Virus record (IMG/VR): IMGVR_UViG_3300029305_006219
Origin: a virus
Strand: one strand, 5' to 3'
Length of the DNA: 64,000 bases
Under the pieces are notes generated by a model. It was not told where the DNA came from. It worked only from the letters and a program-made list of their open reading frames with translations, and did not search any database. This document shows, piece after piece, positions 13,958 to 51,328 of the stretch. Position 1 is the first letter of the stretch, and each line of letters opens with the position of its first letter. Both the position numbers and the translations under genes were made by a program.

Positions 13958-14032
13958 TGGTGAAGCGAATGGGAATTGAACCCACAACGCAGTTGAATAG
14001 TGTCAACCTCATTACCTTTGTGATACCGCTTC
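13958..14032 (-). tRNA. tRNA with CTA in the anticodon loop: candidate amber (UAG) suppressor tRNA
   Basis: Minus-strand sequence GAAGCGGTATCACAAAGGTAATGAGGTTGACACTATTCAACTGCGTTGTGGGTTCAATTCCCATTCGCTTCACCA. The 7-bp acceptor stem has one G.U pair. U8, A14 and GG are in the D-loop. The T-arm is GTGGG/CCCAT with loop TTCAATT. CCA is encoded. The anticodon stem GTTGA/TCAAC is perfect but the loop CACTAT has 6 nt, which is atypical, so the fold needs software confirmation. Confidence 0.6.
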
Positions 14033-28464: not shown

Positions 28465-29517
28465 ATGGCATTAGATAGAAATAGTTTATTTACATTAGGT
28501 CACCGCGTTGCTGACGCTAATCCTTCTGCTCCCGTTGCTTATTCTTTTGAGGATAAGAGTTATAGCTATGCAGATTTAAATAATGCTTTCCGTGCAGAGC
28601 TTAAGGATCTTATTGGTACATATGCTCTTTGGAGAGAGAACCATAATACAGTTTATACTCTTATGGAGGAAATTATCACTGATAAGCTTCCTGCTAAAGT
28701 AATGCAACAATATGGCGCATTTGCTGAAGTTAAGACATATCGTCAAGGCGAAAAGCCTGTATTCGTTCAGAGAATTACCGAGGCTTCCAAGAGACGTGCA
28801 AAGCAGTTTATTGCAATGCCTGCAGGTCTTGCTGGTCGTTATGAGGTCTTTAAGCTTGATGGACGTAGCTACGAAGTAAAGACTTCTGCAATGGGTGCAG
28901 CATGTCAGATCGCTATTGAGGAATTCCTTGATGGTAGAATTGATATGGCTACAGTTCTTGATATTGTTATGGAAGGTATGGATGATAAGATCTATGCTGA
29001 AATCGCAAATGTTCTTATCGCTGCTGTTGAGAATATTCAAGATGCTAACAAGGTTCTTGCTGATAGCTTCGTTGAGGCTGAAATGGACGCTCTTCTTGCA
29101 GTTGCGGACACTTATGGAAACGGTAGATCGACGATTTATTGTACATTTGAGTTTGCTTCTCAAATGCTTCCTGACAATGCTTGGGATCAAGGAAGAATGT
29201 CTGATAGTATGAAGGATGAGTACTGGAGAAATGGTCGTCTTGCAAACTACAAGAACCATCAAGTCATCGTTCTTCGTCAATCTTTTGTTGATGAAACAAA
29301 TACTGAAAAGGTTATCGATCCTTCATATGCTTGGATTATTCCTGGCGGCGCTGAGAAGCCAATCAAGATCGCTTTCGAAGGTGATACAATGATTAAAGAA
29401 GAAGATAATGAAGACTGGTCTAAGAGCATCCACTTCTATAAGAAGGTTGGCGTTGCGGCTATGATCAACAATGATATCTGTGTTTATAAGAACAGATCTC
29501 TTAAGAAAACCAGATAA
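28465..29517 (+). CDS. major capsid protein (350 aa, no in-frame TAG)
   Basis: Strong RBS aagggaggg. Size and position downstream of the scaffold gene fit a major capsid protein. A stem-loop follows at 29535-29569. Confidence 0.55.
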   Translation: MALDRNSLFTLGHRVADANPSAPVAYSFEDKSYSYADLNNAFRAELKDLIGTYALWRENHNTVYTLMEEIITDKLPAKVMQQYGAFAEVKTYRQGEKPVFVQRITEASKRRAKQFIAMPAGLAGRYEVFKLDGRSYEVKTSAMGAACQIAIEEFLDGRIDMATVLDIVMEGMDDKIYAEIANVLIAAVENIQDANKVLADSFVEAEMDALLAVADTYGNGRSTIYCTFEFASQMLPDNAWDQGRMSDSMKDEYWRNGRLANYKNHQVIVLRQSFVDETNTEKVIDPSYAWIIPGGAEKPIKIAFEGDTMIKEEDNEDWSKSIHFYKKVGVAAMINNDICVYKNRSLKKTR

Positions 29518-30679: not shown

Positions 30680-30991
30680 ATGCTTTTAAAGTATGATTAT
30701 AATATAGGTAAAGAAGCAATAAAAATTAGTTTTACTCGATTAACTAATTAGATATATAAGCTTCTCCCATTGCGTGAAGAAGGGAGCGATTGGCGCAAAC
30801 CTTTAATCACAATTATGGAAGAGCTTTAGGGTATGAATAGGTTATTTCTCGATCAATAGCCTAATCTATATAAATTACTTTGTAAATTAGAAGGACTATT
30901 TACTCTTGATTCTGAAGAAGATTTTATGACTTATCGTGGAATCATTTTTGAGTGTCTGAGTATTTTAAGTGAATTACAACAATGTCTTTAA
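30680..30991 (+). CDS. hypothetical protein (about 103 aa, 3 in-frame TAG)
   Basis: ATG at 30680. Frame 2 is open through three TAGs to the TAA at 30989-30991. Confidence 0.4.
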
Positions 30992-31971: not shown

Positions 31972-31988
31972 GATAAAAGGAGTACACT

Positions 31989-33327: not shown

Positions 33328-33362
33328 TAAAAAACTTAAAATATTTTAAGGAGGACAACTCT

Positions 33363-34286
33363 ATGCAATTTGGTATTAGAGAAATATGCGACGTCGTATT
33401 TAAGGCTAAAAATGCTGGAAACCTTGGTTCCTTTAAGTATGTTGCAGGACAGCCTGTTCTTTATATTGACAGCGCAAAAACTTCCACAATGGAAGGCGCA
33501 GCTACCACTGTTTATGCTCAGGGTGGTAAGGGTAATGCGCGTTTGATCGCTTGGGAAGGTGAGAGAACTCTTACTTTCACGGTTGAAGACGCACTTCTTT
33601 CTGAGCTTGGATTTGCTATTCTTTCTGGCGCTGGTCTTTTAAAGGCTGGTGAAAAAGTTGGAGAGAATACTCATGTTGCTCATGTTCATTCTACTTCTAG
33701 AACTGTTATTGGTACAGATGGAAAAATCGATCTTAGTGATGTTCTCGGTGAGAATGAAACTATCGATGAAGCTTCTCCTGTTTTTGTTATGCTAATGGAG
33801 CATGGTTCGCTTAAGAATATTCTTACTGGTTGCACTATTGCAGAAGATGGTAAATCAATTACTGGACCCATCCAAATGGACGGTGAGACGGCGGTTGAAG
33901 CAGATGTCTTTGTTGACTTCTATATTCAAAAGACAGCTGGTGTTACAGAAATGACTATTGATATGGAGAACTTTGCAGGTTATTATTATGTTGAAGCATC
34001 TACTCTCTTTAGACGTCAATCTGACGGTAGAGACTTACCTGCTGAGCTTATTTTCCCGAACGTTAAAATTCAATCTAACTTCACATTCTCAATGGCTTCT
34101 ACTGGTGATCCTTCTACATTTACATTCACAATGGATGCAATGCCTGGATACACTCGTTTTGATCGTTCTAAGAAAGTTCTTTGCGCAATGCAAGTTGTTG
34201 ACGAAGATACTAGCGATGACAAGGATCCTGATAAAGATTCTGCTGATTTGATAGCAGATGCAGAAAAACTTTATCCTATTGCTTAA
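33363..34286 (+). CDS. abundant tail protein (307 aa, no in-frame TAG); candidate tail tube protein
   Basis: Strong RBS taaggagg. Intact ORF followed by a strong terminator. The position upstream of the chaperone/tape-measure genes supports the call. Confidence 0.45.
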   Translation: MQFGIREICDVVFKAKNAGNLGSFKYVAGQPVLYIDSAKTSTMEGAATTVYAQGGKGNARLIAWEGERTLTFTVEDALLSELGFAILSGAGLLKAGEKVGENTHVAHVHSTSRTVIGTDGKIDLSDVLGENETIDEASPVFVMLMEHGSLKNILTGCTIAEDGKSITGPIQMDGETAVEADVFVDFYIQKTAGVTEMTIDMENFAGYYYVEASTLFRRQSDGRDLPAELIFPNVKIQSNFTFSMASTGDPSTFTFTMDAMPGYTRFDRSKKVLCAMQVVDEDTSDDKDPDKDSADLIADAEKLYPIA

Positions 34287-34310
34287 GCAGTAAGTAATTA
34301 AATAGTATTT

Positions 34311-34341
34311 AAAAGGCGGTGGGTGGTCCACCGCCTTTTTA
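34311..34341 (+). terminator. intrinsic terminator
   Basis: Hairpin aaggcggtgg-gtggt-ccaccgcctt followed by TTTTT. Confidence 0.6.
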
Positions 34342-34363
34342 TTATGAGTAAAAGGAGGTATGT

Positions 34364-36124
34364 ATGAGTAAGCTTGGAGATTATATTCATGTTAGCTGGA
34401 AAAATTATCGATTATATGGTACTACTAAACAAGGCCCTAGTAATTTTGATCCTATGATTTTTGCTCATCATAGAACAGAGGTTGCGCGCGAAATTTTAAA
34501 AACTAAAGAAATAAATAATATTGCAAAATTAGAATAGCAATACAATAGTGGAGCAAAAAAGTTAAATTCATTTATATCTAATGTTATTGCACATAAAAAT
34601 GATAATAAAGATTTTTTAACTTAGCTTTTAAGTATTATTAGTAAAAATTATAAATCTATTTCAGATTATATTATAAAAGGATTAAAATGGGATCCTCATA
34701 GAGAATGCATTATTTATGATCCTGAAATTACTACTGAAGCATTAAAAGCGGATGAAGTAAATGCGCAAAAAACAATGCAAAATTTTCAACGACAATCTGG
34801 TATACATATCGACCCATTGGTAACGCATCTATAGTCAATAAAAAGTAAATTATCAAAATTAAATGAAAGTTCTTTAAAAATTGGATTATTAGCTACTTGT
34901 CAAAGTTACATTTTATCTTTGCAACAAGCGAAAGGTGAAGATAGTTTATTAGCAGATTCAATTAGGGTAATTACTCGTGGTAAGGTACAAGGCGGTTTTT
35001 TATCAATAGCAGAAGAAACAAAATAGGGGAAAAAAGGTTTTTTAAATGGATTTTTAGCTGATATTTAGAAGCTAACTGCATAGTCATTGAGCGCAATTAG
35101 AATTTAGAATAATATTGGAGCAGAATTAGCAGAAATTATGGGTACTGTTATTAGTGAAAATCTTAATAATCTTTCTAGAACTGCGCTGGAAGAATATTTT
35201 AAGTCATTCGTTAATTCTAATAAAACTACTATGGGGCGCGCAATGACGAAAGCTTGGACAAAAAAAGTAAATGGAAATATGACGGGCGCAGGTATTGGAT
35301 CTATTGAATTAAATTTAGATAATATTGATTTAGGAACTTTATTTGATGATAAAAACTCTCATAGAAAAGCTATTCAAAAATATGAGTCTAAAAAAACGGG
35401 AGAAATTAGTTACTCAATTGAATCTTTTTCTGATACAGTTTAGCAAAAAGCGGATTTCATTGTTACTTTAAAAGATAATACACAATTTGGAGTGTCTATG
35501 AAAAATTATGATATGTCTGATATTTCAGCTATTGAAACAAAAGTTGGAACAAAAATTCCTAATAGCATTGCTTTACAGGATTCTAGTTTAGCTTTATATC
35601 TAGGAGCATTAGAATTGAAACACAAACCTGGAAACTTAGGCAATCATTATTTATAGATTTTAAGCCAATAGAGAGGATATGAGAATGGAAAATATGCGGC
35701 TGAAATATAGCGAATGCGTACGTAGGCTAATCAAGCTTTATCTTTATATATTTTATGGAGCGCAATGACTGGGCGCGGTCAGGGTAGAGGTTTTAGTAAT
35801 TAGTTTGCTGATATTTTAGCTATTTATGATAAAGCAGATAAATTTGCTGCTATAACTGGTTTTAGAAGAATTCGTTTATATAGCATGAGAGATATTTTAA
35901 AAGATATTATGACTATGACTCAGGATTCTTTTAATTAGGTGGCAATATTTACACCTCGTATTTCTCAAATTCTATTAGATAATAAAAGGGTAGGTGATAA
36001 ACCTGATTTTGCATTGGCAAAAGAGCGTATTTCTAAATTAGTTATTCATGCAAAATCATAGAATATAGCGGTTTCTTTATCTAAAATATATCTTAATACT
36101 ATTGCAGGTATTTCTTATAAATAA
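34364..36124 (+). CDS. hypothetical tail-region protein (about 586 aa, about 17 in-frame TAG)
   Basis: RBS aaaggagg plus ATG at 34364. Frame 2 is open to the TAA at 36122-36124 and contains track ORF 35138..35443. Confidence 0.45.
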
Positions 36125-36133
36125 TATTTAAAC

Positions 36134-36162
36134 TTGACTTTTTAAAAATTTTTTCTTATAAT
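36134..36162 (+). promoter_or_regulatory. internal consensus promoter TTGACT-N17-TATAAT
   Basis: aacTTGACTttttaaaaattttttctTATAAT lies upstream of the chaperone and tape measure genes. Confidence 0.5.
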
Positions 36163-36205
36163 ATATATGTAAGAACTAAGTAAGAGTAAAAGGAGATTAA
36201 AGAAT

Positions 36206-36733
36206 ATGAATTATTCTAATTTTAATATTCATCTTAATAAAGATGTAAAAACTATTGAATATAATAATAATACTATTAATATATTATAGTATCTTCCTAT
36301 TGAAGAAAAAAATAGTATTATTCAACTCGCACTTCAAAATAGTGAAGAAAATGGTATTTATAATGTATTAATGTTAGATATGTATTTTAAACTTTATATT
36401 GTATATTCTTATACAGATATTGAATTTACAGAAGATGAAAAAGATAATCCTGTTAAGCTATATGATGAGTTGTATAGCGAGGGATTAATACAAGCAATTA
36501 TATCGGCGATTCCTATTCATGAATATGAATATCTTTGCGATAACCTTAAACATATGATGGATCTTAAACTTCAATATCGCAATACTATTGCATCTGTAAT
36601 TAATAATTTTGTAGAGAATCTACCTATTAATGCAAATGCGGCAAAGGACATTATTGAGAAGTTTAATCCTGAGGATTTTCAAGAGGTATTAAAGTTTGCA
36701 CAAGCTGCAAATGGCAATCGTCCAATTAATTAA
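36206..36733 (+). CDS. tail assembly chaperone-like protein (about 175 aa, 1 in-frame TAG)
   Basis: RBS aaaggag plus ATG at 36206, in frame with track ORF 36371..36733. The position immediately upstream of the tape measure gene supports the call. Confidence 0.4.
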
Positions 36734-36828
36734 GGTCAAAATAAGATAAATTTAATACCCTAACTATTATATATTAGTAGTATAGGGTATTTTATTTTAC
36801 CTAAAACGAGAAACAAGGAGGATATATA

Positions 36829-39800
36829 ATGGCTAATTAGGAAAGAATTAATTTCTAGGTTGGTTTTAATGTAGATTAGTCTGGTTTAAATTAGTTAAAA
36901 ACAAGTTTATCTAATTTATAGAATATGAAACCAGCGGACTTAACTAATATTAAAAATTTGGCTGAGGCTAAAAAAGAATTATCTATTATTCAACAAGAGG
37001 CTAAGAAAGTATAGAATGCACTTGAAGCTAGTTTTAATCCTACGTTAGGCACGCATAACATTGATATTTTTAAACAAAAATTAATAGAAAATGGTGCTTC
37101 TATTTAGGATATAAAAAATAAATTTGCATCTGCGGGTGCCGAAGGTACAACTGCATTTAGAAATTTAGCAACAGCAATTTCATCAACTAAATTACCGCTT
37201 CAAGAGACACATAATTTATTGCGCTCTATGGGCACTACATTGATGAATACTATTAAATGGTCTATTGCATCTTCAGCTTTATAGACGATCACTTCTTCTG
37301 TTCAATAGGCATGGAATTATACTAAATAGCTAGATAAATCATTAAACAATATTATGCTTGTTACTGATAAAAGCGCAGAGTCAATGGAGAAATTTGCGCG
37401 TCAAGCAAATAAAGCGGCTAGGGAATTAGGTAAAAGTACTAAAGATTATGCCAATGCTGCTTTAATATATTACCAACAAGGTTTATCTGAAGAAGAGGTA
37501 AGAGCTAGAACAGAAACAACGCTGAAAGTTGCAAATGTTACGAAACAAAGCACAGAAATGGTTTCTGAACAATTAACCGCGGTTTGGAATGGTTATAAGG
37601 TATAGGCGCAAGAAGCTGAAGCTTATATCGATAAAATTGCAGTTGTAGCAGCAACAACCGCAGCCGACTTAGAAGAGCTCTCTACTGGTATGTCTAAAGT
37701 TGCTTCTGCGGCTAGCAATATGGGAGTTAATATTGATTAGTTAAATGCAATGTTAGCAACTGTTATTTCCGTTACGCGCCAGGCGCCTGAGTCTGTTGGT
37801 ACAGCATTTAAAACCATTTTTGCTCGTATTAGTGATATTGAAGCGGGCTTAGATGCAGAAGCTACTCTTGGAGAATACACAAAACAAATGTCGCAATTGG
37901 GCTTTGATGTTTTAGATGCGAATAATAAACTACGCGATATGGGTAGCGTTGTTGAGGAAATTGGTAGTAAATGGAATACATTGTCGCGTGAACAATAGAT
38001 TTCATTGGCATAGACAATGGCTGGTACTCGTCAGTATAATAATCTTTTAGCGTTATTTGAAAACTGGAGTATGTATGAGAAGTCTGTACGAGATTCTGCT
38101 ACTGCAACCGGATTTTTACAAGAACAACAAGAAAAATATTTAGATTCTGTTGAAGCTCATTTAGAACAATTAAGCGCGGCAGGTGAGCGTGTATATGATG
38201 CTTTGTTTGATTCAAAAAGTACTAATAATCTTATTGATATTTTAACTGATTTTGTTACATTTTTTGGTAATGCTATTGAATCAATAGGGGGCGGCGGTAC
38301 TTTATTAATGGCTATTTTACCAGTAATGACTAAATTATTTTCTGGTAGTTTAGCATCTGGCATGGCTACATTTGTTACTAACATTCAAAATGCATAGCAG
38401 TCTGCTCAATCGCTGCGTGGATTATTAGAGAATATTAAAGAAATTCGTTTAAATGGGGATACTTTGACTTCTGATTATGATGAAAAAATTAGCGCTTTAA
38501 GAGAAAATTTAGTATTATTAAAGCAATAGGGTATTATTACAAATGAAACTTTTAATAATTTAACAGATACTATTAATGCTTTTGCAAATGCAGCTAATGA
38601 ATACGAGAAATCTATAGAAGCTTATGATCCTACTACAATAGGAGATTAGTATACAAAAATTTTATAGCGTGGCTTTAATATGCCTCCTGCTGGAAGTAAA
38701 TCCTCTGTCACAGAAGAGTCTGCATAGCTTTATATAAATCGTTTATCTGAATATGCTCGTGAAAATCCATTTTCAAATGAAGATTTTATAAGAATGGAAA
38801 ATTCAAGTGTTGAATATATGGATGCTTCTGCTGAAAATTCTTATAAGAGATTATATTTTGAGTTAGAGAATGTTTAGGCTGCATATAACGAAACTATAAA
38901 ACGTGCATAGAATTTAACAAAAATTATTAACAATACATCATGGGATAAATTTAAGCAAGAAGGAAGCCCTGCGGTTAAAAAGTTTAATGACGAACTTCAG
39001 CATACGTTAAATGATGTTAATAAAATTTCATAGTCTGGATTACTTTCTGGATAGGACTTAACTCATTTTAATAAATATGCGTCAGTATTAAAAGGATTTA
39101 ATAAAGATACAAAAATTACTCAAGAATAGTTTGATCAAATATAGACAGCCGTGTCTGAAATTGAGCGTTTAACTAAACGCGCAATGGGCAAGGGCAATAC
39201 AGAAGCTAAAAAGATGTAGCAATCTTTACGTGAGCTTGGCGCAGCGGGGGTTGAGGCAAAATCTACTATGGATTAGTTTGGTGTGGCTGCTGAAATGGCA
39301 TTGCGTAAAGCTAACCTTGAAAAGCAAATTAATTCATTTATTCAATTAACATCTAATATTAGTATGGCAATTTCTGCGTTGACAATATTGTCTAATTTAG
39401 GTTCTATTTGGAAAAATGAAGATTTAACTGTTGGAGAAAAACTGTTATAGACATTATAGAATACTGTTACTACAATATCATTATTAAGTCCATTGATTAC
39501 AGGTCTAATTAAATTATATAGTACCCATAATGCTAAACTTGCAGAAAAAAATATTTAGACTGCTCAAGAAATTGCTTTAACACAAATTTTAACAACATTA
39601 AAAGATAAAGAAGCTAATGCAGAAACTAAACTGTGGGCAGCCAAATGTTTAGTAGATTTAGCCGGGGATGAAATAAATGATGAACTACGCGAAGAAATTA
39701 ATAATCATATTTTAAACGGTGAAGCATTAGATAATGAAACTATAGCAATTTTAAAAAATGCTGCTGCTAAAAAAATTGCTAATAATACTGATAATCCTTC

Positions 39801-42800
39801 TTTTAAAGATACAACGAAAGATATTTTTGATAGTGGGAAAAATAAATTTAAAGATTTTGGTAGTGGATTCAAAGAAGGCTGGAAAGGCACTGATTTAAAA
39901 GGCGTTAAAGGATGGAAAGCAGGTGGCGCAGGAGCCAAGGCAGGCGCAGCAAAAGGTGGCGCTGCTGGTATTGGACAAGCTATTGGAGCGGTGGCGCCTT
40001 ATATTGCAGCATTTGCAGCAGTGGCCGCGATTATTACAGGAACTGCAGCAATCGGCATTGCTGTTTAGAATAAAGAGCAAAAAGCTTTTGAGCAAGCAAC
40101 AGAAGCTGCAAAAGCTCAATAGGCACAATTACAAGCCACACAACAAGAATGGGATAATTTATAGTCTTCTATTTCAAATCTAGAAAATGCTAAAACTGCT
40201 TTAGAAGATTTAACTGAAGGAACGGTTGAATGGAATAAGGCTTTAACAGATATTAATAATCAAGTCTTAGATTTATTAACTAAATATCCTGAATTAGCAT
40301 CATATATGGAGCGCGATCCTATTACTGGAGAATTATCTATTGATCCAGAAGGCTTAGAGCTAATATAGCAGAAATAGTATGAAGAACTACAACGTGCTAC
40401 ATCTCGTACCTTACTTACAGATATGGCTGCCGATCGCAAGGAATATGAGTATGCTCGTAAAGAATATGTAGAAGGTTCTAGTTTTGGAGGTCAAGCAGGT
40501 GCAGATTTAGCAGCGGGAGCAGGTGCCATTGGCGCCACAGCAGGAGCTGGTATTGGCGCAATTTTTGGACCGTTAGGTATGGTTATCGGCGCAGCTATTG
40601 GTGGAGTTGGCGGCTTAATTGTTACAGCGATTACGGATGCAAATGAAGATACTAAAGCTCAAAACTTAGAATCTGATGAATCTTATCGCAAAGCTATGGA
40701 TGCCTATACCGCTGGTAACACAGCTGTTTTTAATTCTTATGAAACATTAGCAAAGGTTTTAGGTAAAACAACGAATGAGTTAACGGATACTGAAAGAGCA
40801 TTGGTTGATAATACTGCAGAGACTAAGGCTTTAGCTGAAGCTTATCGTGCAAATGAAGCAGGAAAATAGGATAAATATATTGAGCTTGGTAAATCTATAT
40901 TAGGAGAAGGCTATTCTTTAGGTGAGTATTATGCAGCAGGAGAAAAGGCTGATACAGAATACTAGGCCTCATTAGAATAGGTTAAATCTCAATATGCTGG
41001 TTTTGATCAAGCAGACAAAAAAGCAGGAATAGATTATTTAAAAACATTAGGGTTAGATGAGAGTAATTTTGTAGGCACTAAAGGTTCTAATAGATTTTAG
41101 TATATCGATGCGGAAGGCAATGAACAAGATATATCGATGACTTAGATATATGCGGCTTTAGCTTCAGATATGGCTTCAGATTTAGCCAAATCGACTAAAG
41201 GCATTACGACAATGGCATTGGCGCCAATTGTAAATAAATTTCAAGATGAAACTGCAAAATCTGCTGTATCATTATTAAGATCTGGTAATGCAAATTATGA
41301 AAAGTTAAATAAGGCTGCCTTAAAAGAATTAACATCAGTTACATTAACCGCCGAAGAATTAACTAAATTAAGTGAAGCAACTGGTAAATCTGCAGATGAT
41401 TTATTGAGTGTTCATGAGGCTGCTGTGACGGCAGCTAACGCCTCATGGGATAAAGTAACTTTAGATATGCCTATTCATATGCAAGCTGCTTTTACTACAT
41501 TAGAAAACTCAATTACAACTGATTTATTAAGTCCTGAGCAGTGGGCTGCATTTAGTGGATATTTTACTGAATTATGGGAGCGCTATGGCGCAGAATCAGC
41601 TAATAAATTTGCTGCCGTATTTACTTCTATGGGTGAAGCATCAGATGATGTTATCGTAGCAATATAGGAAATAGATTGGTCTTCTATTGATAATGTTGAA
41701 AATGAAATTAAGAGAATTTTTACAGATTTAAATGTTACAGTTCCTAATGATGTTTTTGATGATTTTACGGCACAATGGCGTGCTTTGTGGGGCCAGGCCA
41801 TTACTCTTGAAGAGCTTCAAGATAGTTATGCTAATTTTCAATCTATTATGCAAAAAGTTGCAAAAGAGAGTAAGATTGCATAGGATGAATATGATAAGTT
41901 ATCAGATAAACAAAAAGAGTATTTTACCGTTTTAGCTGACGGTACAGCATTATTAATTGGTAATGCTAATGAATTATACTAGCAAGGTAAAAAAGACGAG
42001 AGAGAAAAGTTTTTTAATAGTTTAAATATTAGTCAAGGTAATTTACAAAATTATACATAGAAAAATATTGAAGCAAATAAAGCAAGAGATGACCTAAATA
42101 ACCTTGATAGAGTATCAAAGTTTATTGATGTATCAAATTTAAATATTCCAAACACAATAACAGTTTCAAATATACCTAATTTGACAAGTGGAGAGGCTTC
42201 TTTTGATACAATTGTTGCTGCATTTACAGGAAATAAAACTGGAGATCTAACATGGTCTAAAAATTAGACACAAATTATAAATGCAGCTTGGGAAAAAATA
42301 AATAATGCTTCAGCATCAGATTTATATTATAATAAGGATAAATTTTTACTTTCTGGAGGTTTTGGCCATTGGGGGTAGAGCCGAGTAAAGGAACAAAATG
42401 CCTTACAAGGGTTTAATACTTTATTTTCAGATTATATAGATATATTAATAAAGAAAAAAGTAGCAGCCGGAGATTTAATTGAAAATAAAGATTATGACAC
42501 TTATGAAAAAGAATATAATGAGCTGCAAGGTAAAATTGAAAGTGAAGTAAGTAACACGACTATAAATGAAGAACAAAGAAAGTATGATGGTGTAATGCAT
42601 CAGCTGCTTACTACTTATGATTCTGTCACAGAGCTTGAAAATGCATTAATTAATGGAACAGCAATTAAAGATTTTGTAAAGGGAGATATTTATACTGTTA
42701 CAGAAGACTAGAAAAAATAGGCTATTGAAGCTATTGAACTTCGTACTGTCATTAATTCGTTATAGGGACAAGAAAATGAATTAAATTTAGATAGTTTTAA

Positions 42801-45800
42801 TATTTTTAAAAAGAATTTTTCATCTCAGGAAGAAGCTTTAAAACAGCTAATTTTAGGACATAAAGATTTATCGCATTTAATTACTGATAATACTAATGAA
42901 CTTGAATATTTATAGAAAGCTTATGAGTCTTTAGGTAAAAGTGAATAGCTTGATAATTTAATAAAATAGTCATCTTTATTGTCAAAAAATATTAATTTAA
43001 CTCGGTAGTCATTAGGACGTGATGTTCAGCTTGATAAGACAATTATTGAAGCTAATTTACAAAATGTTGCTACAAATATGCAAGCAACTGGCATTAAAGT
43101 TGACGCAGCTTTGTTTAGAAAAATGTTTGCTGCAGATGGAACTTTTGATGCGAGTAGTTTAGTAGCGTTAGAAACATATTATGCTGAAAATGTATCAGAA
43201 ATTATAAATAATCCTATTTTAAAAGAGAGTTGGAATAATTTATTTGAAGCGATAGAAAAATCATAGTCTAATTATGAAGAAAACTATAATGCATGGCTTG
43301 ATAGTATTTATAATTCATTTGATAAAAATCTTGAAGTATTAGAAATAAAACTAGAATTAGCTTTTGATAAAACAGATTTTGAAAGAGCTTATAATGATTA
43401 TATTAAAACTATTTATGATGATGATTATGTAAAAATAGGAGAAGTTTTATTAGGAGATATTAATACTTATGCAGATGATATTAACAATATTAACGAAGCA
43501 ATTAAGGGCCTCAATGAGGGATTAATAATTTCAGAGGAGACTTTTGAGAAATTTTCATAGCTACCTGCTGAAATTACTTAGGCTACTTATGATGCTATGG
43601 ATGACAGTGCCAAAAAGTTTTATGATGAAGATACCTTAAAACTTCGTACAGACATTTATACGTTAAAAGGTGCTGAAGAGAAAAAATAGGAACTTTTAAA
43701 CCAGTTAATGGAAAAAGGTCTGTCCCTTGAAGAGGCGCGCGCCGCAGTTTATGACCATATTAATTCGTACTTAGATGATGTATCTAGTGCATATGAAACT
43801 TATATTGGATACCTTGAAGATATTTCAGAGATATTGGAACAATAGGTTTCTTTAAATGAATTACTTTATGGAGATAAAGCATTTAAATATTTAGATGGTT
43901 ATTATAAATCTGCTTTAAGCAATCAAACGAAAATAACAGAAAAGCGTAGAGAAGATTATGAGACTTAGCTTAAAGAATATGAATTAGTAAAAGATAGCGA
44001 AGAATTGAGCCCAGAATAGGCTGAAAGATATTTAACTGCTCGCTCTAATTATTTAAGTGAATTGGTTAATAAAGCTACTCTTATTACTGAACAATTTGCA
44101 AATGATGTCAAAGTAACCATTGCAAACTTTGAAGAAGAGGTATTTGGTAATACTGTTGCATCTCTTAAAGAAGAGTGGGAATGGTTCAAAGATATGAGTG
44201 ATGATTATCTGGATTAGATTGATGCTGGCTATGGTATTGATGCTATTGAAATAGCTTTTGAAAAGGCATTATAGTCTACTAAATTATCTGTTAATGCGCA
44301 ACAAAAACTAAATGATTTAAGAAATCTTGAATTAAAGGCTTTGCGCAAAAAGGATAAATTAACTCAATATGATTTAGATAGGGCGCAAAAGCGTTTAGAC
44401 TTATTACAAGCAGAAATTGCTCTTCAAGAAGCTCAAGAAAACAAAACTCAAATGCGCCTAATGCGCGGAGCAGATGGTACTTATAGTTATCAATATGTTG
44501 CTGATTAGAGTAAAATTTTAGAATAGCAAGAAGCTTTAAATAAGGCGCAATAGGAACTAGTTAACTTAGACGAGGAAGAGTTGAAAAAGACTTTGGACAA
44601 TGTAGCTTCTCTTTGGGAAGATTGGCAATAGACTGTCTCTGAAAAGATTACTAGTGGCGAATGGGATAAGGAAGAAGATGCTCAAGAGTATACAGATAAA
44701 TAGTTAGCGCGATTTAAAGATAGTTAGCTTCGAACAAAAGAGTTACTCGATAAGCTTGGCTGGAGTGCAGAAGATGCATAGATTAATTTAGGTTTAGATT
44801 ATGAGTTAAGTGAAATTTTTACCTGGTTATAGTCAGATTGGGCCGAAAGTATGACCACTGCAGAAAGTACTTTTGCAGATAAGTCGCAAGAGATTATAGC
44901 TGAAATTTTTGCATCTAAAAAAGAAGCCGATGAACAACTAAATAATATAAATATGGCTTTTAAAGGTATTTCGGATAATTTATTATCTGACACAGATGGT
45001 ATTTTATCAAAATAGGAATAGGTTATTGAAAAATTAGAGGCAATACGTAAGGGTATATTAGGAGACGGAGAAGAAAAAACTGAAAGTCTACTATCTAGTA
45101 TAAAAGGGTTAGAAGGTGCAATTTCAGAATACACTGGTACAATCGCTCAGACGGTTCAAGGGGCTATTAATAATGGATTAGGACTTTAGGGCGGTGGATC
45201 TCCTGATACCAATCTTAGTCTTAGTAAAAGTGATATTGAAGATGCTCAATATTTTCTTAATAATAAAGGATTTACAGTTACAGATACAGTATCGACTTCT
45301 GGTGGTGCAAAACCTGGAGACACTAGCTTAACAATAACTGGAGAATTGGACTCAGGTACCGAAGAAGCGATTAAAGAGTATTAGCTCCGAATGGGATTAG
45401 CTCCTACTGGTAAATTAGACGCTCAAACTTGGGAGGCAATGAAGAAAGATCCAGAATGGGAAAAATCCAGTGGAATTAATGATGCAGGTTCCGATCATCT
45501 TGATTTTATTGACAATGAATAGAATATAAAAGATTTGGCGCGTACTTTAACTGAGATGGGTCATGGTTTGTTTTACGAGGATTTAACAACATATACGGGC
45601 GCTCTTAGAGACATGGTGGCAAAGATTCAAGAAAGAGCTGGTTTACCTGTCACTGGTTTAATGGATAAAAATACCTAGTAGTTAATTGAAAGAATAGGCT
45701 CTTATTAGACTGCTACTAGATTAAAATAGTATAATGAAATGTTTAATAAGAATTATTCATCATGGGCAGCTCTCAATCAAAGTGGAGATTTATCTAAAAA

Positions 45801-46257
45801 CATAACGCAAAACCAAAACTCAAATGATAGAAGTGGAGTATATTTAGATAATGCTGAAGAGGTTCTCAATTTTACAGAACTTTATAATAATTATAGACGA
45901 TTATCTAAGTTTGATACTGGTGGTTACACAGGAGACTGGGGCGCCGAGGGCCGACTTGCGATGCTTCATGAGAAAGAAATAGTTCTCAATAAACAAGACT
46001 CTTCGAATTTCCTTGATGCACTTGATATTCTCCGCACTTTAAATCTTTCGATGGTTGATTAGATGGCGAATTACAATTTTGGTTTTACGCATTCTCAAGC
46101 GGCATGGGAAGCGCTTAATAGTTCGACTATTGAATAGATTGTTAATATTAATGCGGAGTTCCCGAATGCTACTGACAAGGACGAAATTAAAGAAGCTTTT
46201 GAAGACTTGGTTAATTTAGCATTGTAGTATACAGGTAAGAATTCTCGAGTTAAATAA
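36829..46257 (+). CDS. tail tape measure protein (about 3142 aa, many tens of in-frame TAG codons)
   Basis: Track ORFs 37354, 37750, 38017, 40423, 41170, 43078 and 45739 are all in frame 1. Hand translation of the intervening stretches meets only TAG, never TAA or TGA, until the TAA at 46255-46257. Gly/Ala-rich glycine-zipper TM-like segments (GWKAGGAGAKAGAAKGGAAGIGQAIGA..) are present. The TP901-type region EELSTGMSKVASAASNMGVNID and the C-terminal FDTGGYTGDWG block are recognisable. A hairpin terminator follows at 46261-46295. Confidence 0.6.
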
Positions 46258-46363
46258 AATAAGGCGGCTAAGGGCAACTTTAGCCGCCTTTGGGCATTTC
46301 TATTTAATTTATTTATTATAATTTTTATATTTTTAGAAGAGAAAAAAGGAGGTATAATAATTT

Positions 46364-49300
46364 ATGAGTAATAAATATGCTGATAATTTATTTCAAGCTA
46401 TTGAAAAAATAGCCAATACTAATTCAACTTGGAGAGTTGTTACTGGTGAAATCGTAAATTGCACTGCATATATTGATGGACAATACGTTTATAAAGTGCG
46501 GTATGAAGGAAATATAAGAACCGTTAATACTCCTTTGAGTTTGGCAGAAGGCGATTTAGTTAGACTAGGAGTAGATAATACTAATACAATAAGCGGAGAG
46601 CAATGTTTTATTTTAGAGAAAATTATTTCTAATACATTGACAGAAACTCAAAAAATATCAAAATCATATACTAGAAAAGGAACTGTGCTTTCTATTGATG
46701 AAGAATTTGATTATTCCCCGCAAGAATTAGTATTATATGATATAGAGGTGCCTGATGATTCGATTATTTCTAAAGAAGAAATAAATAATTTAAATGTTAG
46801 TTTAAACGAAGAAGATTTTGACCATATAGTTTTAAGTTTAAATTATACTTCGGCAATAGCTTCTACGAAAAATAGAGCATTGGTGGTTACTATAAAAGAT
46901 GACTCAAAGCCCGCGAAAGAGATTCTAATAACTCTATCATTTTTATAGACTTCTTTAATTCAAAAAGAAGTTGCTTAGGTTAGTGAATTTATAAAAACAG
47001 AAGGTAGAATCTATACTATTACCAAAGTTGTGTTAAAGGGTCTTGAGGAAGGAGACAAAGTATCTAATATCAACATTTATTGCGCCAAAAAGAAAGAAAC
47101 TTCTGATTTGTTTGAGGTTATTATCAAGGCGCGTGATGGGTTAACTTTTGTCTAGAATGATGTTGATTCAATCTAGGTCAGCGCCTATTTATAGTTTAAA
47201 GATGCAGGTTTTAGCTAGGCTTTTGATAATAGTAATGTAACGTATGCACTTTATGCATATAATGGTGCAGACACTTGGATTCAAAAAATAGCTCCAGGTA
47301 CAGAAACTACATTTAGTATTCAACGCGATTGGATTTTTAATCAAACAAGAAAATTTAAAGTTGTTATTAGATACAATGGAGAGGATTTCGAAAAAGAGTT
47401 TACTGTTCGTAATTTAGCGGCGTCAAAGATTGACGTTATTGTTAGCTCTTCTCAATAGAATAAGGATTATTATCTTGATGATAATGTTATATTAATAGGT
47501 AGTCCTGGAGAGGGTTATACTTACTCTTGGTATAAAGCCGATACATTAGGTGGAGAATGGAGCGAATAGTTTGGTAAGACGGATGCTTCACTTATAGTTC
47601 AGAATGCAGATATTGTGGATCAAGATGAGTATTTATTTGTCGTTTATAAGAATGTTGAATATGTGGGTGAAGCTTCGATATCAGTCTTTAACAAGTAGGC
47701 GCTTGAAAAAAGTATGATTTCTTTTAGTATTTAGTATTTATCTTCAAAAAAAGAGCCTAAAGAAGATACTGACGGTTGGCAAAATGAAATGCCAGAAAAA
47801 GAAAATGATAAATATATTTGGCAAAAAATAGAGCGAATTTATATTAACGGATTAAAGTTGGTTTCTATTATTAATATAAGTGGCGCAGACGGAACACCTG
47901 GCGCGCCGGCGATTTCAATACAATCTAATGTTGAGACTTTAACTTTTATTAAGTCAAGCATTGGCAATATAAGTCCTGCCTCAATAGGCTCTATTATAAT
48001 TACAGTCAATAAAGGCGGGGTTGCAGATACAGTCACAAATTATTTTTGTAAATGGTATAAAGGTACTGATTCTAATATAATAAATTCTAATTTATCTTCT
48101 AATAAGAATATTGAAAATGGTATATTTACTTTGGATATTGAAAATATGGCTATTGGATAGGTTGTTTATAAAGTTGAGGTTTATCAAGGTGAAACCACCG
48201 CTACAGATCCTCCATTGATAGGAACTAAAACTATTACAATAATTTGTAATGCAGCTCAAGTTAGTTATACTTTAGTTCCTGATAAGAAATAGATTACTAT
48301 TACTTCTGAAATGCTAATTGATTCGTCTAAACTTCCAAAAGTGCGTTTAGACGTTTATAAAAATGAAGCCGGAATATCAACTCCTATTTTAATACAAGAT
48401 ATCAATAACTCAAAGATAGCGCCTAGTATCGAAATAAATGGTAGTAGAACAATAACATCATTAGTCGAGGGTGAAACAGACTAGACTAAAATACGTTATT
48501 TTCAATACTCTATTACAGAAAATGATTTGAAAACTGCCGAAAATATAATCTTTACTTTAAAAGTAGCTGACCAATTAAATACAACTGCTAAAGAATGGGA
48601 TACCGAAACTTTAAGTTTTATTATTACAGTTGATAAAATAGAGCCATAGTACGCAGGAACTTTAACTTCAGCTTAGCCGGATATAGAATCAGATGCTATT
48701 GAGAACAGTGAGACAGAAAAGAGTTTAGTTCCAGGTGGTTGGTCTACATCTCTTGATAAAGTCGTTCAACTTTCAGGTATTTTATATATTTGGTATCGAG
48801 AAAAAATATATTTTAGTAATGGAACATATGATTTTACCGATCCAAGAGTTGATAGTTCTGAAATGGCTTTAAGAGACTGGGCAGTAAGTGAAAATAAAAC
48901 TTTAATTGATGGTTCAAAAATTTATACTGGATCCATTAGCGCTGATAAAATAAATGTTGATAATCTTAATGCGCTTGCCGCCGAAATTGGCGGTTGGAGT
49001 ATAAATGACTATGGCATTTACAAAGACGATGGAGATAGTAAATCAGCAATGGTTTCTACCTCTGGAGAATAGCGTTTTGCTTCTGGAGGTACTATAGCTT
49101 GGGAAAATATTATAAGTGGAATAGAGTGGGATAGCGATAGGGAAAATGTTATTATTACAACAGACGATACTCATAAATTTAAATTTTCTTTTAGATTTAA
49201 AGGTAGACCATATTCAATGCCTTATGAAGGTAAAATTGGAGAATAGGTGTTTTCTTATACTAATTTTCAAACTTGGTTATCTAACGTGTTTAATCCATAG

Positions 49301-51328
49301 TTAACACTATATTATAAATAGATTAATATTAATAATGGTGAACAAGAAGCTTCTTGGTAGTTATTAAATAAAAATGTATATAGCTTTGAATGGAAAGAGC
49401 CAAAACAAAATAAAATTGAATGCACTGGTTAGATAAATAATACAGCTGGTTTAAGCGGCGGTCTGATTTTAAAAGTAGTAGTCATATATAAGAATTATGA
49501 TTTCTCTGGAATGACAAAGCCTACGTATGAAGTAACAGCAGATGGTAGTATGTCAGCAAAGTTAGGCTATATTGGTGGTTGGAAAATTGATGAAAATAGT
49601 ATTAGTGTTGAGAATGAGAGTTTCTCCCTTATATCAGACGATAGTAGTATGGGAATATCACTTTTAGGTGGAGGAAACTCACCGCACCGTATAGTTGTAG
49701 GCGGAAGCGGTGGAGGTGGCAGCGGTGATGGTGATAATAGCGGTGGCGATGATAATGGTGGTAGTGGAGATTCTACTACTATAACAGTTTTAGTTTCGAA
49801 AGAGAAAAGCATAACTCTGTCAGCTTAGAAGACTGAAGCAAAACAATTTTTACATGAAGGTGTAGATAGTACGTTTATATTAAACTCAATAGAAGGAGAA
49901 GGGGGTTCTTATATTACTTCTATTGAATATAATCCTGATACTAAGTAGATTACTGTCTATTATAGTAATCCAACCTCTTCAGATGCTTAGATAACTATTG
50001 GATATACTGTTCATACTTATTAGACTATACCAAATACAACTACGAGTAGTGCTAATTTAACTGCAAGTAGTAGTACTAGCTCAAGCAACTATACTTTTTA
50101 GTTATTAGCAGACGGTAGCCTGTATGCGAGCGCCGTAGATATTAAAGGTACTATTACTACAGAAAATGGATATATTGGTGGTTGGAATATCGGTCCAAAT
50201 GGATTATACAGTCCCAAATTAGCATCTGGCTCAATATTTAGTTTAAATAGTACTGGCATTGGTAGTTATGATTATCCTTTATTATAGTTACTTAGCTCTT
50301 TTAATATTCCTTCAGATATTAAAGATAGCATAAAATTAGAAGATTTGGGAGTACTTATAGAAAAGGAAGAATATATGTTAAAAGCATCAGCAAGATTTTC
50401 GTTCAATGGTCTTTCGGTAGACGAGTTTAATGCGCAGTATGGTTACAATTTTACAGTTAGTATACGTAATGAAGGAGATTTTTAGTATATAACATTTACA
50501 TATGGAGCGGAACTAAATGTTAAAACAGTAAAAATTGACATATTTGTTGATAATGTTTTTTCTACTTATTCTTTTGCCGTACTTCCTCGACATTTATATT
50601 ATTCTACTGGAAATTTATCTGGTGACATCTACTATGGTGACTGGATTATATTCGATGGCTTATATTTTCAAAACGGTTCTGACAATGGCGCGACTCCCTT
50701 TGGTACAAGTTTAAAATATATTGAAAGTGGTTATCCAACCATATTTTCTACAGCTACTGCTTTAAAAGAAGATCCTAACAGTGGAAATATAATAATATAG
50801 CCAGGGGAATATTTTACAGTTATTCTTAATCAAACAGTTTATTCTTCATGGTCATGGACGCTTATTAAAAGGAAAGCTGATGAAAAGACAGTTTTTTTAC
50901 TTACAGGTTCAAATGGCGATCCTCTTGCCTTTTTAGACTATAATGGTAATTTATTTGCTCAAACTGTAAATTCAACAGGTAGTGACTAGAGAATAAAAAA
51001 TTCGATTCAAGCTATTCCTTTTTAGTACGAAGAAGCTTATGATAATTTTGAACCTGTTATTTATAAATATAATGATGGAACCTCAGACAGATATCATACT
51101 GGTTTTATTGCACAACCAATGGCACAGGCGATCGAAGATGCAGGCTTAACATTGCAAGATTTTGCTGCAGTATGCAAGCCAGCCTATGACGGTGGTACTT
51201 GGGGTATTCGTTATGGAGAAATTGTTTCGCTGAATACATGGCAAATTCAAAAAGCTAAAAAACGTATCACGGCACTTGAACAAGAAGTTTAGAATTTAAA
51301 AGATATAATTACTTCATTGGTTAAATAA
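46364..51328 (+). CDS. giant tail fibre / host-specificity protein (about 1654 aa, many in-frame TAG) with a C-terminal peptidase S74 intramolecular-chaperone domain
   Basis: Track ORFs 46364, 47789, 48863 and 49511 are all in frame 2 and joined through TAG. A Gly-rich linker GGSGGGGSGDGDNSGG is present. The C-terminus SD(TAG)RIKNSIQAIPF...HTGFIAQPMAQAIEDAG...YGEIVSLNTWQIQKAKKRITALEQEV matches the auto-cleaving chaperone domain of phage tailspikes and fibres. TAA at 51326-51328. Confidence 0.55.

What the first reader, a model, noticed from the sequence alone, without database searches (positions are those of the whole stretch)
36829..46257. Exceptionally long tape measure protein (about 3140 aa) encoded with dozens of TAG codons
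One continuous 9.4-kb reading frame carries TP901-type tape measure motifs and Gly/Ala glycine-zipper segments. At about 0.15 nm per residue this implies a tail around 450 to 470 nm long. TAG density here, in terL and in the fibre is far higher than in the capsid, scaffold and tube genes. TAG use may therefore be tuned to low-copy, late-assembled proteins.
Basis: partly seen in the sequence, partly recalled or inferred. Interest (0 to 1): 0.5.

Follow-up and report, generated by a model that had tools for sequence, protein, structure and literature searches.

The report
Giant amber-recoded phage tape measure gene
This is a real 3,142-residue phage tail tape measure gene in which 82 TAG "stop" codons are read as glutamine. 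It is an ordinary member of a large, partly known family of long-tailed gut phages. In that family the reassigned codon is kept out of the high-copy capsid and tail-tube genes.

Summary
Window 36829-46257 (+) is one uninterrupted frame of 3,142 codons with 82 in-frame TAG, no TGA, and a single TAA at the end.

- **It is a tape measure protein (TMP).** It matches the TP901 tape measure core (TIGR01760, PF10145), has Gly/Ala hydrophobic segments, and aligns collinearly at both ends with full-length homologues from standard-code phages.
- **TAG means Gln.** Conserved homologue columns show Gln at TAG positions, and TAG, CAA and CAG interchange among relatives.
- **The phage is a giant siphovirus of Firmicutes.** It is SPbeta-, Tsamsa- and Enterococcus EF1/VRE9-like, and resembles the published phAss-1 and Agate code-15 phages.
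- **The length is normal for this family.** The top 120 homologues span 2,032-3,320 aa. Tsamsa has a 3,123-aa TMP and a 440-nm tail. I estimate a tail of about 400-470 nm.
- **The TAG-skew idea is supported and generalises.** High-copy genes (capsid, scaffold, tube and others) have 1 TAG in 67 Gln codons. Low-copy genes have 165 in 366. In 15 recoded relatives (8 TAG, 7 TGA) the capsid gene never carries the reassigned codon, while the TMP always does.
- **No canonical suppressor tRNA lies in the window.** One odd tRNA-like insert carrying CUA in its anticodon loop is a candidate.

Verdict: a new member of a known kind, of modest interest.

The parts
36829..46257 (+). Tape measure protein gene: 3,142 codons plus a TAA stop, with 82 in-frame TAG read as Gln
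36815..36821 (+). Ribosome-binding site AAGGAGG, 7 nt before ATG 36829
37327..38310 (+). TP901-type tape measure core, aa 167-494. PF10145 covers aa 194-399.
   Evidence: TIGR01760 135.7 bits; PF10145 E = 3e-32
38272..38361 (+). First hydrophobic segment, aa 482-511 (IGGGGTLLMAILPVMTKLF)
   Evidence: The segment is conserved in homologues.
39919..40074 (+). Gly/Ala-rich hydrophobic (glycine-zipper-like) segment, aa 1031-1082
40459..40644 (+). Second Gly/Ala-rich hydrophobic segment, aa 1211-1272
   Evidence: weak DUF1269 match
45226..45708 (+). Two PG_binding_1 peptidoglycan-binding repeats (about aa 2800-2960). This is a lineage-specific insert not shared by most homologues.
   Evidence: PF01471 E = 3.5e-16, two stretches. 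Homologue coverage is 0-7 of 120 across aa 2700-3000.
45889..46254 (+). Conserved C-terminal tape measure module, aa 3021-3142 (FDTGGYTG..LHEKE.VLN ... EQ.V.I.AEFPN)
   Evidence: 42-67% identity to the C-termini of the full-length homologues shown; 47% over 47 aa to SPbeta YomI
46261..46290 (.). GC-rich hairpin right after the TMP stop, terminator-like
33363..34286 (+). Tail tube protein (YomU_Tube family), 0 TAG, followed by a terminator-like hairpin at 34318-34336
34364..36124 (+). Unknown 586-aa protein between the tube and chaperone-like genes, with 15 TAG. Its position is conserved in relatives but its length varies.
36206..36733 (+). YomO-like 175-aa protein at the position of a tail assembly chaperone (phrog_30570)
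46364..51328 (+). 1,654-aa tail fibre with a Peptidase_S74 intramolecular chaperone (aa 1540-1595), 32 TAG
28465..29517 (+). Major capsid protein (YonB family, phrog_4088), 0 TAG. Used as the high-copy comparator.
13961..14032 (-). tRNA-like element with CUA in a 6-nt anticodon loop, inserted in an early-gene leader. A candidate amber suppressor, but unproven.

Best explanation
The ORF is the tail tape measure protein of a large (about 120-160 kb) long-tailed siphovirus of Firmicutes. The phage reads TAG as glutamine in its late genes.

**Inferred function.**
- A few copies of the mostly extended protein fill the tail tube lumen during assembly.
- They set tail length at roughly 400-470 nm.
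- The Gly/Ala hydrophobic segments and the two peptidoglycan-binding repeats probably act at the cell envelope when the protein is ejected ahead of the DNA.

**What a full-length product requires.** It needs 82 consecutive amber read-throughs. Per-codon suppression must therefore be very efficient late in infection: 0.99^82 = 44%, while 0.95^82 = 1.5%.

**The codon skew.** TAG has been purged from the proteins needed in hundreds of copies (capsid, scaffold, tube, and a possible head fibre). It has drifted up to about 45-65% of Gln codons in proteins needed in a few copies (TMP, fibre, distal tail protein).

**Shown versus inferred.** Shown: gene integrity, family membership, TAG = Gln, and the codon skew with its recurrence in relatives. 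Inferred: tail length, copy numbers, the envelope role of the C-terminal domains, and the selective cause of the skew.
For: **Gene integrity and identity.**
- One frame with no TAA/TGA over 3,142 codons.
- TIGR01760 and PF10145 hits above their cut-offs, and ten tape measure PHROG families.
- 3,418 homologues at E <= 1e-10. The best 120 are 2,032-3,320 aa and align at both termini.

**TAG = Gln.**
- With X placed at TAG positions, homologues show Gln at 19.9% against a 6.1% background.
- Six of the eight strongly conserved columns are Gln: 304, 390, 395, 874, 3103 and 3133.
- TAG, CAA and CAG interchange at aligned Gln sites among TAG-recoded relatives.

**Family and synteny.**
- Precomputed Pfam hits on identical genes give YonB, YonD_N, YomW, YomV, YomU_Tube and YomO.
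- Gene order matches SPbeta, whose YomI TMP is 2,285 aa.
- Gene order also matches Enterococcus phage VRE9_2, whose TMP is 2,673 aa.
- Tube-protein relatives include Tsamsa-like, Lactococcus 949-group and phiCD211-like giant siphoviruses.
- Tsamsa has a 3,123-aa TMP and a 440-nm tail (PMC3903500).

**Codon skew.**
- High-copy gene set: TAG 1, CAG 22, CAA 44.
- Low-copy gene set: TAG 165, CAG 24, CAA 177.
- Fisher's exact test gives p = 1e-14 for TAG against all Gln codons and 4e-16 for TAG against CAG.
- In 15 recoded relatives the capsid gene has 0 recoded codons in all 15 and the tube gene 0 in 13. The TMP has 4.5-40 per 1,000 codons.
Against: - No canonical tRNA-Sup(CUA), release factor or Gln-tRNA synthetase lies in the 64-kb window, so the decoding machinery is not seen.
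- TAG share falls as GC3 rises (Spearman -0.62). Part of the skew could therefore be compositional.
- Two conserved TAG columns align with Asn (152) and Lys (160) rather than Gln.
- Only the first 2.2 kb of the gene is confirmed by an independent assembly.
- Tail length, non-contractility and copy numbers are inferred from relatives, not measured.
Confidence: 0.9

Rival explanations
1. The TAG-free state of the capsid, scaffold and tube genes reflects timing, not copy number. These proteins can be translated before the code switch and accumulate. TAG-laden assembly initiators (portal, TMP, distal tail protein) are held back until the suppressor is active, so recoding gates the start of head and tail assembly.
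For: - A consensus host-type promoter (20165-20196) reads directly into the TAG-containing + strand block.
- The published model holds that recoding blocks premature translation of late genes (bioRxiv 10.1101/2021.08.26.457843).
- The TMP carries 5 TAG and no CAA/CAG in its first 31 codons.
Against: - TAG-free and TAG-rich genes are interleaved on one strand with short gaps, for example portal (8 TAG), then scaffold (0), then capsid (0). This does not look like separate early and late units.
- The portal gene has 0 TAG in relatives L010 and L034.
- There is no general tendency for an early first TAG across genes. The fibre's first TAG is at codon 195.
Confidence: 0.2
2. The skew is neutral. 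TAG simply accumulates in AT-rich, fast-evolving genes through C-to-T changes at CAG, and TAG-poor genes are merely the GC-richer ones.
For: - TAG share correlates negatively with GC3 (rho = -0.62, p = 0.003).
- TAG-rich genes (TMP, fibre, the 586-aa unknown) are the most divergent among relatives.
Against: - CAG and TAG both end in G, yet high-copy genes have 22 CAG to 1 TAG while low-copy genes have 24 CAG to 165 TAG.
- Summing by hand: capsid genes have 0 TAG against 99 CAA/CAG in eight TAG-recoded relatives, and 0 TGA against 18 TGG in seven TGA-recoded relatives. The TMPs of those genomes use the recoded codon for about 37% and 64% of such sites.
Confidence: 0.12
3. TAG is still a stop codon and the 9.4-kb frame is a decayed or fragmented gene, or an assembly chimera of several genes.
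For: Under the standard code the region breaks into 83 fragments, and no suppressor tRNA was found in the window.
Against: - There is no TAA or TGA in 3,142 codons (P about 1e-59).
- The protein aligns collinearly with 2,600-3,300-aa single proteins from standard-code relatives.
- Gln sits at conserved TAG columns.
- The same pattern appears across all late genes, and late genes end only in TAA or TGA.
- Near-identical sequence occurs in four independent assemblies over the parts they cover.
Confidence: 0.01

Closest known systems
Bacillus phage vB_BanS-Tsamsa tape measure protein (3,123 aa; 440-nm non-contractile tail; 168.9-kb genome)
   Same: Almost the same TMP length. The TP901-type N-terminal core is homologous: Tsamsa-like phages hit over the first ~375 aa. 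The tube protein is homologous at about 30% identity. Both are giant siphoviruses of Firmicutes. Tail length and TMP length come from PMC3903500.
   Different: Nothing in the Tsamsa paper passages read here indicates stop-codon recoding; its genetic code was not checked directly. TMP similarity is confined to the N-terminal core. The host is aerobic Bacillus, whereas this phage comes from metagenomes.
Enterococcus phages EF1 / EF5 / H1 / VRE9_1-4 (about 134-142 kb; TMP 2,673 aa in VRE9_2)
   Same: These are the best cultured matches. The TMP aligns at about 29% identity in three collinear pieces, including both ends. The tube protein is 40% identical. They share the same PHROG families and gene order: 4088 capsid, 31155, 2729 tube, 30570, then TMP 34405.
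   Different: The TMP is annotated as one uninterrupted 2,673-aa CDS, which implies standard code; the code was not checked directly. It is about 470 aa shorter. The genes between tube and TMP differ.
Bacillus phage SPbeta (SPBc2) tail module, YomI tape measure (2,285 aa)
   Same: Pfam families named after SPbeta genes hit the window's genes: YonB, YonD_N, YomW, YomV, YomU_Tube and YomO. Gene order is the same. YomI matches the TP901 core (24% over 415 aa, E = 1e-23) and the C-terminal motif (47% over 47 aa).
   Different: The relationship is very distant; other proteins are not detectable by BLASTP. SPbeta is temperate, and its genes are annotated as uninterrupted CDSs, implying standard code. 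Its TMP is shorter. From my own knowledge, UniProt describes YomI as a transglycosylase, whereas this protein carries only PG-binding repeats.
phAss-1 / proposed Phassvirus and related code-15 gut phages (PMC10607447); Agate clade of recoded phages (bioRxiv 10.1101/2021.08.26.457843)
   Same: These are TAG-to-Gln gut phages of about 127-154 kb in which TerL, portal, TMP and fibre genes are interrupted by TAG. The Agate clade mixes standard, TGA- and TAG-recoded members, as the window's relatives do. phAss-1's TMP N-terminus is 33% identical and its tube protein 44% identical.
   Different: The window is a different, distant lineage. phAss-1 encodes three tRNA-Sup(CUA), but none is seen in this window. 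Membership of Agate could not be tested because no Agate sequences are held here. Those papers report which genes are enriched in the recoded codon. In the text I read, they do not report its absence from capsid and tube genes.
Thermus phage P23-45 tape measure (5,002 aa; 800-nm tail)
   Same: It is an even longer TMP that sets an extreme tail length (PMC10770324).
   Different: It is unrelated in sequence as far as tested. Its N-terminal third is a virion RNA polymerase, and no such enzymatic domain was found here.

Membership tests
Phage tail tape measure protein, TP901 family | Match to the curated core models above their cut-offs | tested here: met
   TIGR01760 scores 135.7 bits against a cut-off of 28.8. 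PF10145 scores 112.5 bits against 33.2.
Phage tail tape measure protein, TP901 family | Position in the tail module, after the tube and chaperone genes and before the distal tail and fibre genes | tested here: met
   The order is tube 33363-34286, YomO-like 36206-36733, TMP, then the S74 fibre at 46364. SPbeta and VRE9_2 have the same order.
Phage tail tape measure protein, TP901 family | Single long polypeptide collinear with full-length family members, including the conserved C-terminal module | tested here: met
   The N-terminal HSP starts at residue 1-4 in 8 of the 9 homologues shown. Conserved C-terminal HSPs reach the last residues of 2,633-3,320-aa homologues.
Phage tail tape measure protein, TP901 family | Hydrophobic or transmembrane-like segments | tested here: met
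   Segments at aa 482-511, 1045-1082 and 1227-1272.
Phage tail tape measure protein, TP901 family | Protein length proportional to tail length (about 0.13-0.15 nm per residue) | not testable with these tools
   This needs electron microscopy. Calibration comes from Tsamsa (3,123 aa, 440 nm) and TP901-1 (937 aa from my own knowledge; 118-nm tail).
Code-15 (TAG = Gln) bacteriophages | Coding density collapses under the standard code and is restored when TAG is sense | tested here: met
   ORF coverage is 47% under the standard code, 87% with TAG as sense and 56% with TGA as sense.
Code-15 (TAG = Gln) bacteriophages | In-frame TAG aligns with Gln in homologues | tested here: met
   Gln is 3.3-fold enriched at TAG columns, and six conserved columns are Gln. 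TAG, CAA and CAG interchange among relatives.
Code-15 (TAG = Gln) bacteriophages | TAG not used as a terminator of recoded genes | tested here: met
   All 32 + strand late genes end in TAA or TGA.
Code-15 (TAG = Gln) bacteriophages | Phage-encoded suppressor tRNA with anticodon CUA (common, but not universal) | tested here: inconclusive
   ARAGORN and Rfam find no canonical one in the 64 kb. One tRNA-like element has CUA in a 6-nt loop. The window is only part of the genome.
SPbeta / Tsamsa / EF1-like giant siphoviruses of Firmicutes | Shared structural-module protein families and synteny | tested here: met
SPbeta / Tsamsa / EF1-like giant siphoviruses of Firmicutes | Genome of about 115-170 kb | tested here: inconclusive
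   The window is 64 kb of unknown total. Closest IMG/VR relatives sit on 123-150-kb contigs.
SPbeta / Tsamsa / EF1-like giant siphoviruses of Firmicutes | Non-contractile tail (no sheath) | tested here: inconclusive
   No sheath family hit was found among the tail-module proteins I searched, and the Tsamsa relative is a siphovirus. The 586-aa unknown protein has no match at all, and morphology was not observed.
Agate clade (Borges et al.) | Placement in the Agate TerL clade | not testable with these tools
   No Agate sequences are available here. The resemblance rests on genome size, gut origin and the mix of three codes.

The most novel reading that the evidence does not exclude
In this phage family the reassigned stop codon may work as a built-in dosage filter. 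Whichever codon a lineage reassigns (TAG or TGA), selection keeps it entirely out of proteins made in hundreds of copies per virion. It is allowed to become a major codon in proteins needed in 3-12 copies. The 82-TAG tape measure then acts as a stringent sensor that only yields product once termination at TAG has been almost abolished (at least about 97-99% read-through per codon). The odd CUA-bearing tRNA-like insert, placed behind a strong early promoter, could be the non-canonical suppressor that achieves this.
Probability: 0.3. Interest if true: 0.55.

Novelty: new member of a known kind. Interest (0 to 1): 0.35.

Why it matters
**Practical.** Under the standard code this 9.4-kb gene is split into about 80 fragments. 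Such phages are then mis-annotated and their tail biology is missed. Read correctly, the phage falls among the giant long-tailed siphoviruses of Firmicutes, a group with cultured models (SPbeta, Tsamsa, EF1/VRE9).

**Conceptual.**
- A protein that needs 82 successive amber read-throughs puts a hard lower bound on suppression efficiency in the infected cell.
- The clean split between recoded-codon-free high-copy genes and recoded-codon-rich low-copy genes recurs in TAG and TGA lineages.
- That recurrence gives a testable, quantitative angle on why phages recode stop codons: cost of suppression versus regulation.

None of this overturns current views. It refines them.

Tried and rejected
- **Close relatives in the phage collection.** Megablast of the gene found nothing.
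- **IMG/VR scans seeded on TMP segments.** Scans with aa 150-463 and aa 1440-1612 found no relatives. The middle of the protein is too divergent, and Gln-containing seed peptides fail on TAG. Seeding on the TAG-free tube and capsid proteins worked.
- **Internal tandem repeats as the source of length.** TRF found none at score 40 or above.
- **Programmed frameshift between the YomO-like gene and the TMP.** There is no overlapping frame, and the only slippery heptamer (AAATTTA, 36748) lies after the stop. I rejected this.
- **Solved structures.** There are no PDB sequence matches for the tube protein or the TMP ends.
- **Suppressor tRNA.**
  - ARAGORN and Rfam found none on the window.
  - ARAGORN found none on 18 structural loci.
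  - Neither ARAGORN nor Rfam found one on the early regions of relatives.
  - An exact-match scan for the CUA tRNA-like 3' half in IMG/VR found nothing.
- **A 5' TAG cluster acting as a general gate.** It holds for this TMP and its nearest relative only, not across genes, so I kept it as a note.
- **The 586-aa unknown protein as a sheath.** I rejected this. It has no sheath family hit, it lies downstream of the tube gene, its length varies among relatives, and it is TAG-rich.
Full report
**1. The observation.** Frame +0 of 36829-46257 contains 3,143 codons. There are 82 TAG, no TGA, and a single TAA as the last codon. Every other frame carries 123-413 TAA/TGA. At the lowest off-frame TAA+TGA rate (4.2% per codon), an open run of 3,142 codons has a probability near 1e-59. 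In-frame TAG occurs at 2.6% against 2.2% expected from base composition, so it behaves as an ordinary sense codon. Across the whole window, ORF coverage is 47% under the standard code and 87% when TAG is sense. All 32 + strand genes from 20.2 kb onward end in TAA or TGA. The start codon is well defined. AAGGAGG lies 7 nt upstream, and the N-terminus MANQERINFQVGFNVDQSGLNQLK aligns from residue 1 with homologues. A GC-rich hairpin follows the stop. I found no internal tandem repeats and no frameshift signal.

**2. What the gene is.** Several lines of evidence identify it as a tape measure protein (TMP).
- The protein matches PF10145 (E = 3e-32) and TIGR01760 'tape_meas_TP901' (135.7 bits, cut-off 28.8, aa 167-494).
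- It also matches ten tape measure PHROG families, two of which have profiles of about 2,650 positions.
- Hydrophobic Gly/Ala segments lie at aa 482-511, 1031-1082 and 1211-1272.
- Near the C-terminus there are two PG_binding_1 repeats, followed by a conserved terminal module.
- A search of 5.8 billion proteins gave 3,418 homologues at E <= 1e-10. The best 120 are single proteins of 2,032-3,320 aa (median 2,842), and 11 are longer than this one.
- BLAST segments are collinear. The N-terminal core aligns over the first ~530 aa, extending to ~1,750 aa in the closest homologues. A central coiled region (about aa 2000-2600) and the last ~120 residues also align. The PG-binding stretch (aa 2700-3000) is lineage-specific.

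This is therefore one gene, not a fusion or a set of fragments.

**3. TAG means Gln.** I placed X at the TAG positions so that the alignment could not be biased toward Gln. Homologues then show Gln at 19.9% of those columns against a 6.1% background. Six of the eight strongly conserved columns are Gln (304, 390, 395, 874, 3103, 3133). The other two are Asn (152) and Lys (160). Between TAG-recoded relatives, TAG, CAA and CAG interchange at aligned Gln sites.

**4. Which phage this is.**
- The capsid and tube proteins have relatives on 75-165-kb IMG/VR contigs.
- Identical genes in other assemblies carry precomputed Pfam hits named after SPbeta genes: YonG_N, YonD_N, YonB, YomW, YomV, YomU_Tube and YomO.
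- Gene order matches SPbeta, whose YomI TMP is 2,285 aa. YomI matches this protein weakly but significantly at the TP901 core and at the C-terminal motif.
- The nearest cultured relatives are the ~134-142-kb Enterococcus phages EF1/EF5/H1/VRE9. VRE9_2 has a 2,673-aa TMP and the same PHROG order.
- Tsamsa-like Bacillus phages, Lactococcus 949-group phages, Brevibacillus phage Sundance and C. difficile phiCD211-like phages share the tube family.
- phAss-1, a published code-15 gut phage, is a distant relative.
- Among 87 related loci, the long ORF downstream of the tube gene runs off the locus end at 2,000-2,700 aa or more in most loci long enough to show it. It is open under the standard code in most, only with TAG as sense in about ten, and only with TGA as sense in about ten.
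- That mix of three codes at about 127-154 kb is what Borges et al. describe for their Agate clade. I could not test membership of that clade.

**5. Tail length.**
- Tsamsa has a 3,123-aa TMP and a 440-nm non-contractile tail (PMC3903500), which is 0.141 nm per residue.
- TP901-1 has a 118-nm tail. With its 937-aa TMP (length from my own knowledge) that is 0.126 nm per residue. Its deletion series gives about 0.15 nm per residue.
- Applied to 3,142 residues, these figures give about 400-470 nm. The most likely value is near 440 nm, or somewhat less if the ~160 globular PG-binding residues do not contribute.
- The length is not a record. P23-45 has a 5,002-aa TMP and an 800-nm tail (PMC10770324).

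**6. The TAG skew within the window.** The TAG share of Gln-type codons differs strongly among the 32 late genes (chi2 = 99, df 31, p = 5e-9).
- It is zero in the scaffold, capsid and tube genes, and in the 53006-55481 pair. One of that pair has a weak head-fibre match.
- It is 45% in the TMP, 47% in the fibre, 65% in the distal-tail-like protein and 44% in the 586-aa unknown. TerL (31%) and portal (35%) sit near the mean.
- Pooled, the high-copy genes have TAG 1, CAG 22 and CAA 44. The low-copy genes have TAG 165, CAG 24 and CAA 177. Fisher's exact test gives 1e-14.
- Because CAG and TAG both end in G, the CAG-versus-TAG contrast (4e-16) is not a GC3 effect. TAG share nevertheless does fall with rising GC3 (rho = -0.62).

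**7. The skew in relatives.** I repeated the count in eight TAG-recoded and seven TGA-recoded relatives.
- The capsid gene carries no recoded codon in all 15 relatives. Summed by hand, that is 0 TAG against 99 CAA/CAG, and 0 TGA against 18 TGG.
- The tube gene carries none in 13 of 15.
- The TMP always carries many, at 4.5-40 per 1,000 codons.
- Several of these loci are close relatives of each other, so they are not 15 independent events. At least two different codons and several lineages are nevertheless involved.
- The Borges preprint tested for gene families enriched in the recoded codon and does not mention capsid genes. This depletion may therefore be a modest new point.

**8. Mechanism.**
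- Full-length TMP requires 82 read-throughs. The yield would be 44% at 99% efficiency per codon, 8% at 97% and 1.5% at 95%.
- From general knowledge of siphovirus tails, a ~440-nm tube needs roughly 100 hexameric rings, or about 600 tube subunits, against a handful of TMP copies. A cost per recoded codon would therefore matter most for the capsid, scaffold and tube genes.
- The terminator-like hairpin right after the tube gene fits a step down in expression at that point.
- I rank selection against the recoded codon in high-copy genes as the most likely cause. A timing or gating role comes second, and pure mutational drift third.

**9. Decoding machinery.**
- No canonical suppressor tRNA lies in the window or in the relatives' loci I fetched.
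- One element at 13961-14032 (-) scores 38.9 bits as a tRNA and folds as a cloverleaf. Its anticodon loop has six nucleotides, CACUAU, and contains CUA.
- It starts 6 nt after the -10 hexamer of a consensus promoter and precedes the ribosome-binding site of a small early gene. It is missing from the same leader in the two closest relatives.
- It is a candidate suppressor at perhaps 30-35%. Nothing here proves function.

**10. Verdict.** The gene is a new, TAG-recoded member of a known kind: very long tape measure proteins of giant Firmicute siphoviruses. Its length is ordinary for its family. The most useful by-product is the family-wide exclusion of the reassigned codon from the capsid and tube genes.

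Noticed in passing
window 13961-14032 (-), promoter 14046-14077 (-): A tRNA-like element scores 38.9 bits against Rfam tRNA but is not called by ARAGORN. Its anticodon loop has 6 nt (CACUAU) and contains CUA. It sits between a consensus promoter and the ribosome-binding site of a small early gene. The same leader in the two closest relatives (L095, L096) lacks it, so it is a lineage-specific insertion of about 80 nt. It is a possible non-canonical amber suppressor.
   Followed up: partly
window 10689-10760 (-); L095 11322-11391; L096 11294-11363: A tRNA gene (Rfam 44.6 bits) has an 8-nt anticodon loop, UUUCGUUU, which ARAGORN reads as the 4-base anticodon 'tcgt'. The homologous tRNA in relatives has anticodon AGG (Pro) or AGT (Thr), while the acceptor stem changes with compensatory pairs. 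The anticodon arm therefore varies far more than the rest of the molecule.
   Followed up: partly
window 1763-16928 (- strand, 14 sites) and 20165-20196 (+): Fifteen near-consensus sigma-70 promoters with an extended -10 (CTCTTGACA-N14-TGGTATAAT, at most 3 mismatches) are present, against 0.08 expected by chance. Fourteen of them lie on the - strand among the small, largely TAG-free early genes. One on the + strand reads straight into the first TAG-containing gene at 20227.
   Followed up: partly
loci L002-L088 (relatives of the tube and capsid proteins): Within one structural-gene family, different lineages use the standard code, TAG as sense, or TGA as sense. This is judged from which code keeps the long tape measure ORF open.
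   Followed up: partly
window 36829-36921 (first 31 codons of the TMP); L023 13353 onward: All five Gln positions in the first 31 codons are TAG (codons 4, 10, 17, 22, 31). Four of them are shared with the nearest TAG-recoded relative. The post hoc probability is about 0.001, and the rest of the gene is uniform (KS p = 0.69). Other genes show no such 5' clustering.
   Followed up: yes
window 45226-45708 (TMP aa ~2800-2960): Two PG_binding_1 repeats, with no detectable catalytic domain, sit just before the conserved C-terminal module. Most homologues carry different, unrelated inserts at this spot, so it looks like a swappable cell-wall-interaction cassette.
   Followed up: partly
window 34364-36124 (+): A 586-aa protein with no Pfam or PHROG match and 15 TAG lies between the tube and chaperone-like genes. 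An ORF of 334-571 aa occupies the same slot in the TAG-recoded relatives, and only some of them are detectably similar.
   Followed up: partly
window 53006-55481 (+): Two Ala-rich fibrous proteins carry no TAG at all. The first has a sub-threshold head-fibre match (PF11133, 22.5 bits against a cut-off of 24.6). If they are head fibres, they fit the pattern of high-copy proteins avoiding TAG.
   Followed up: partly
window 61336-62136 (+): The N-terminus of this ORF (FYVYEWYNVDTNYVFYVGKG) looks like a GIY-YIG homing endonuclease motif, in the middle of late genes. Pfam gave no hit at E <= 0.01, so this rests on the sequence motif only.
   Followed up: partly
window 19805-39002; loci L090-L093: The same phage appears in four independent assemblies from ENA and JGI. 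Identity is 100% over 11.2 kb, 99.99% over 10.4 kb, 98.8% over 9.7 kb and 98.0% over 14.6 kb. At 98% divergence the only TAG-involving codon changes are TAG/CAA (twice) and AAG/TAG (once).
   Followed up: yes
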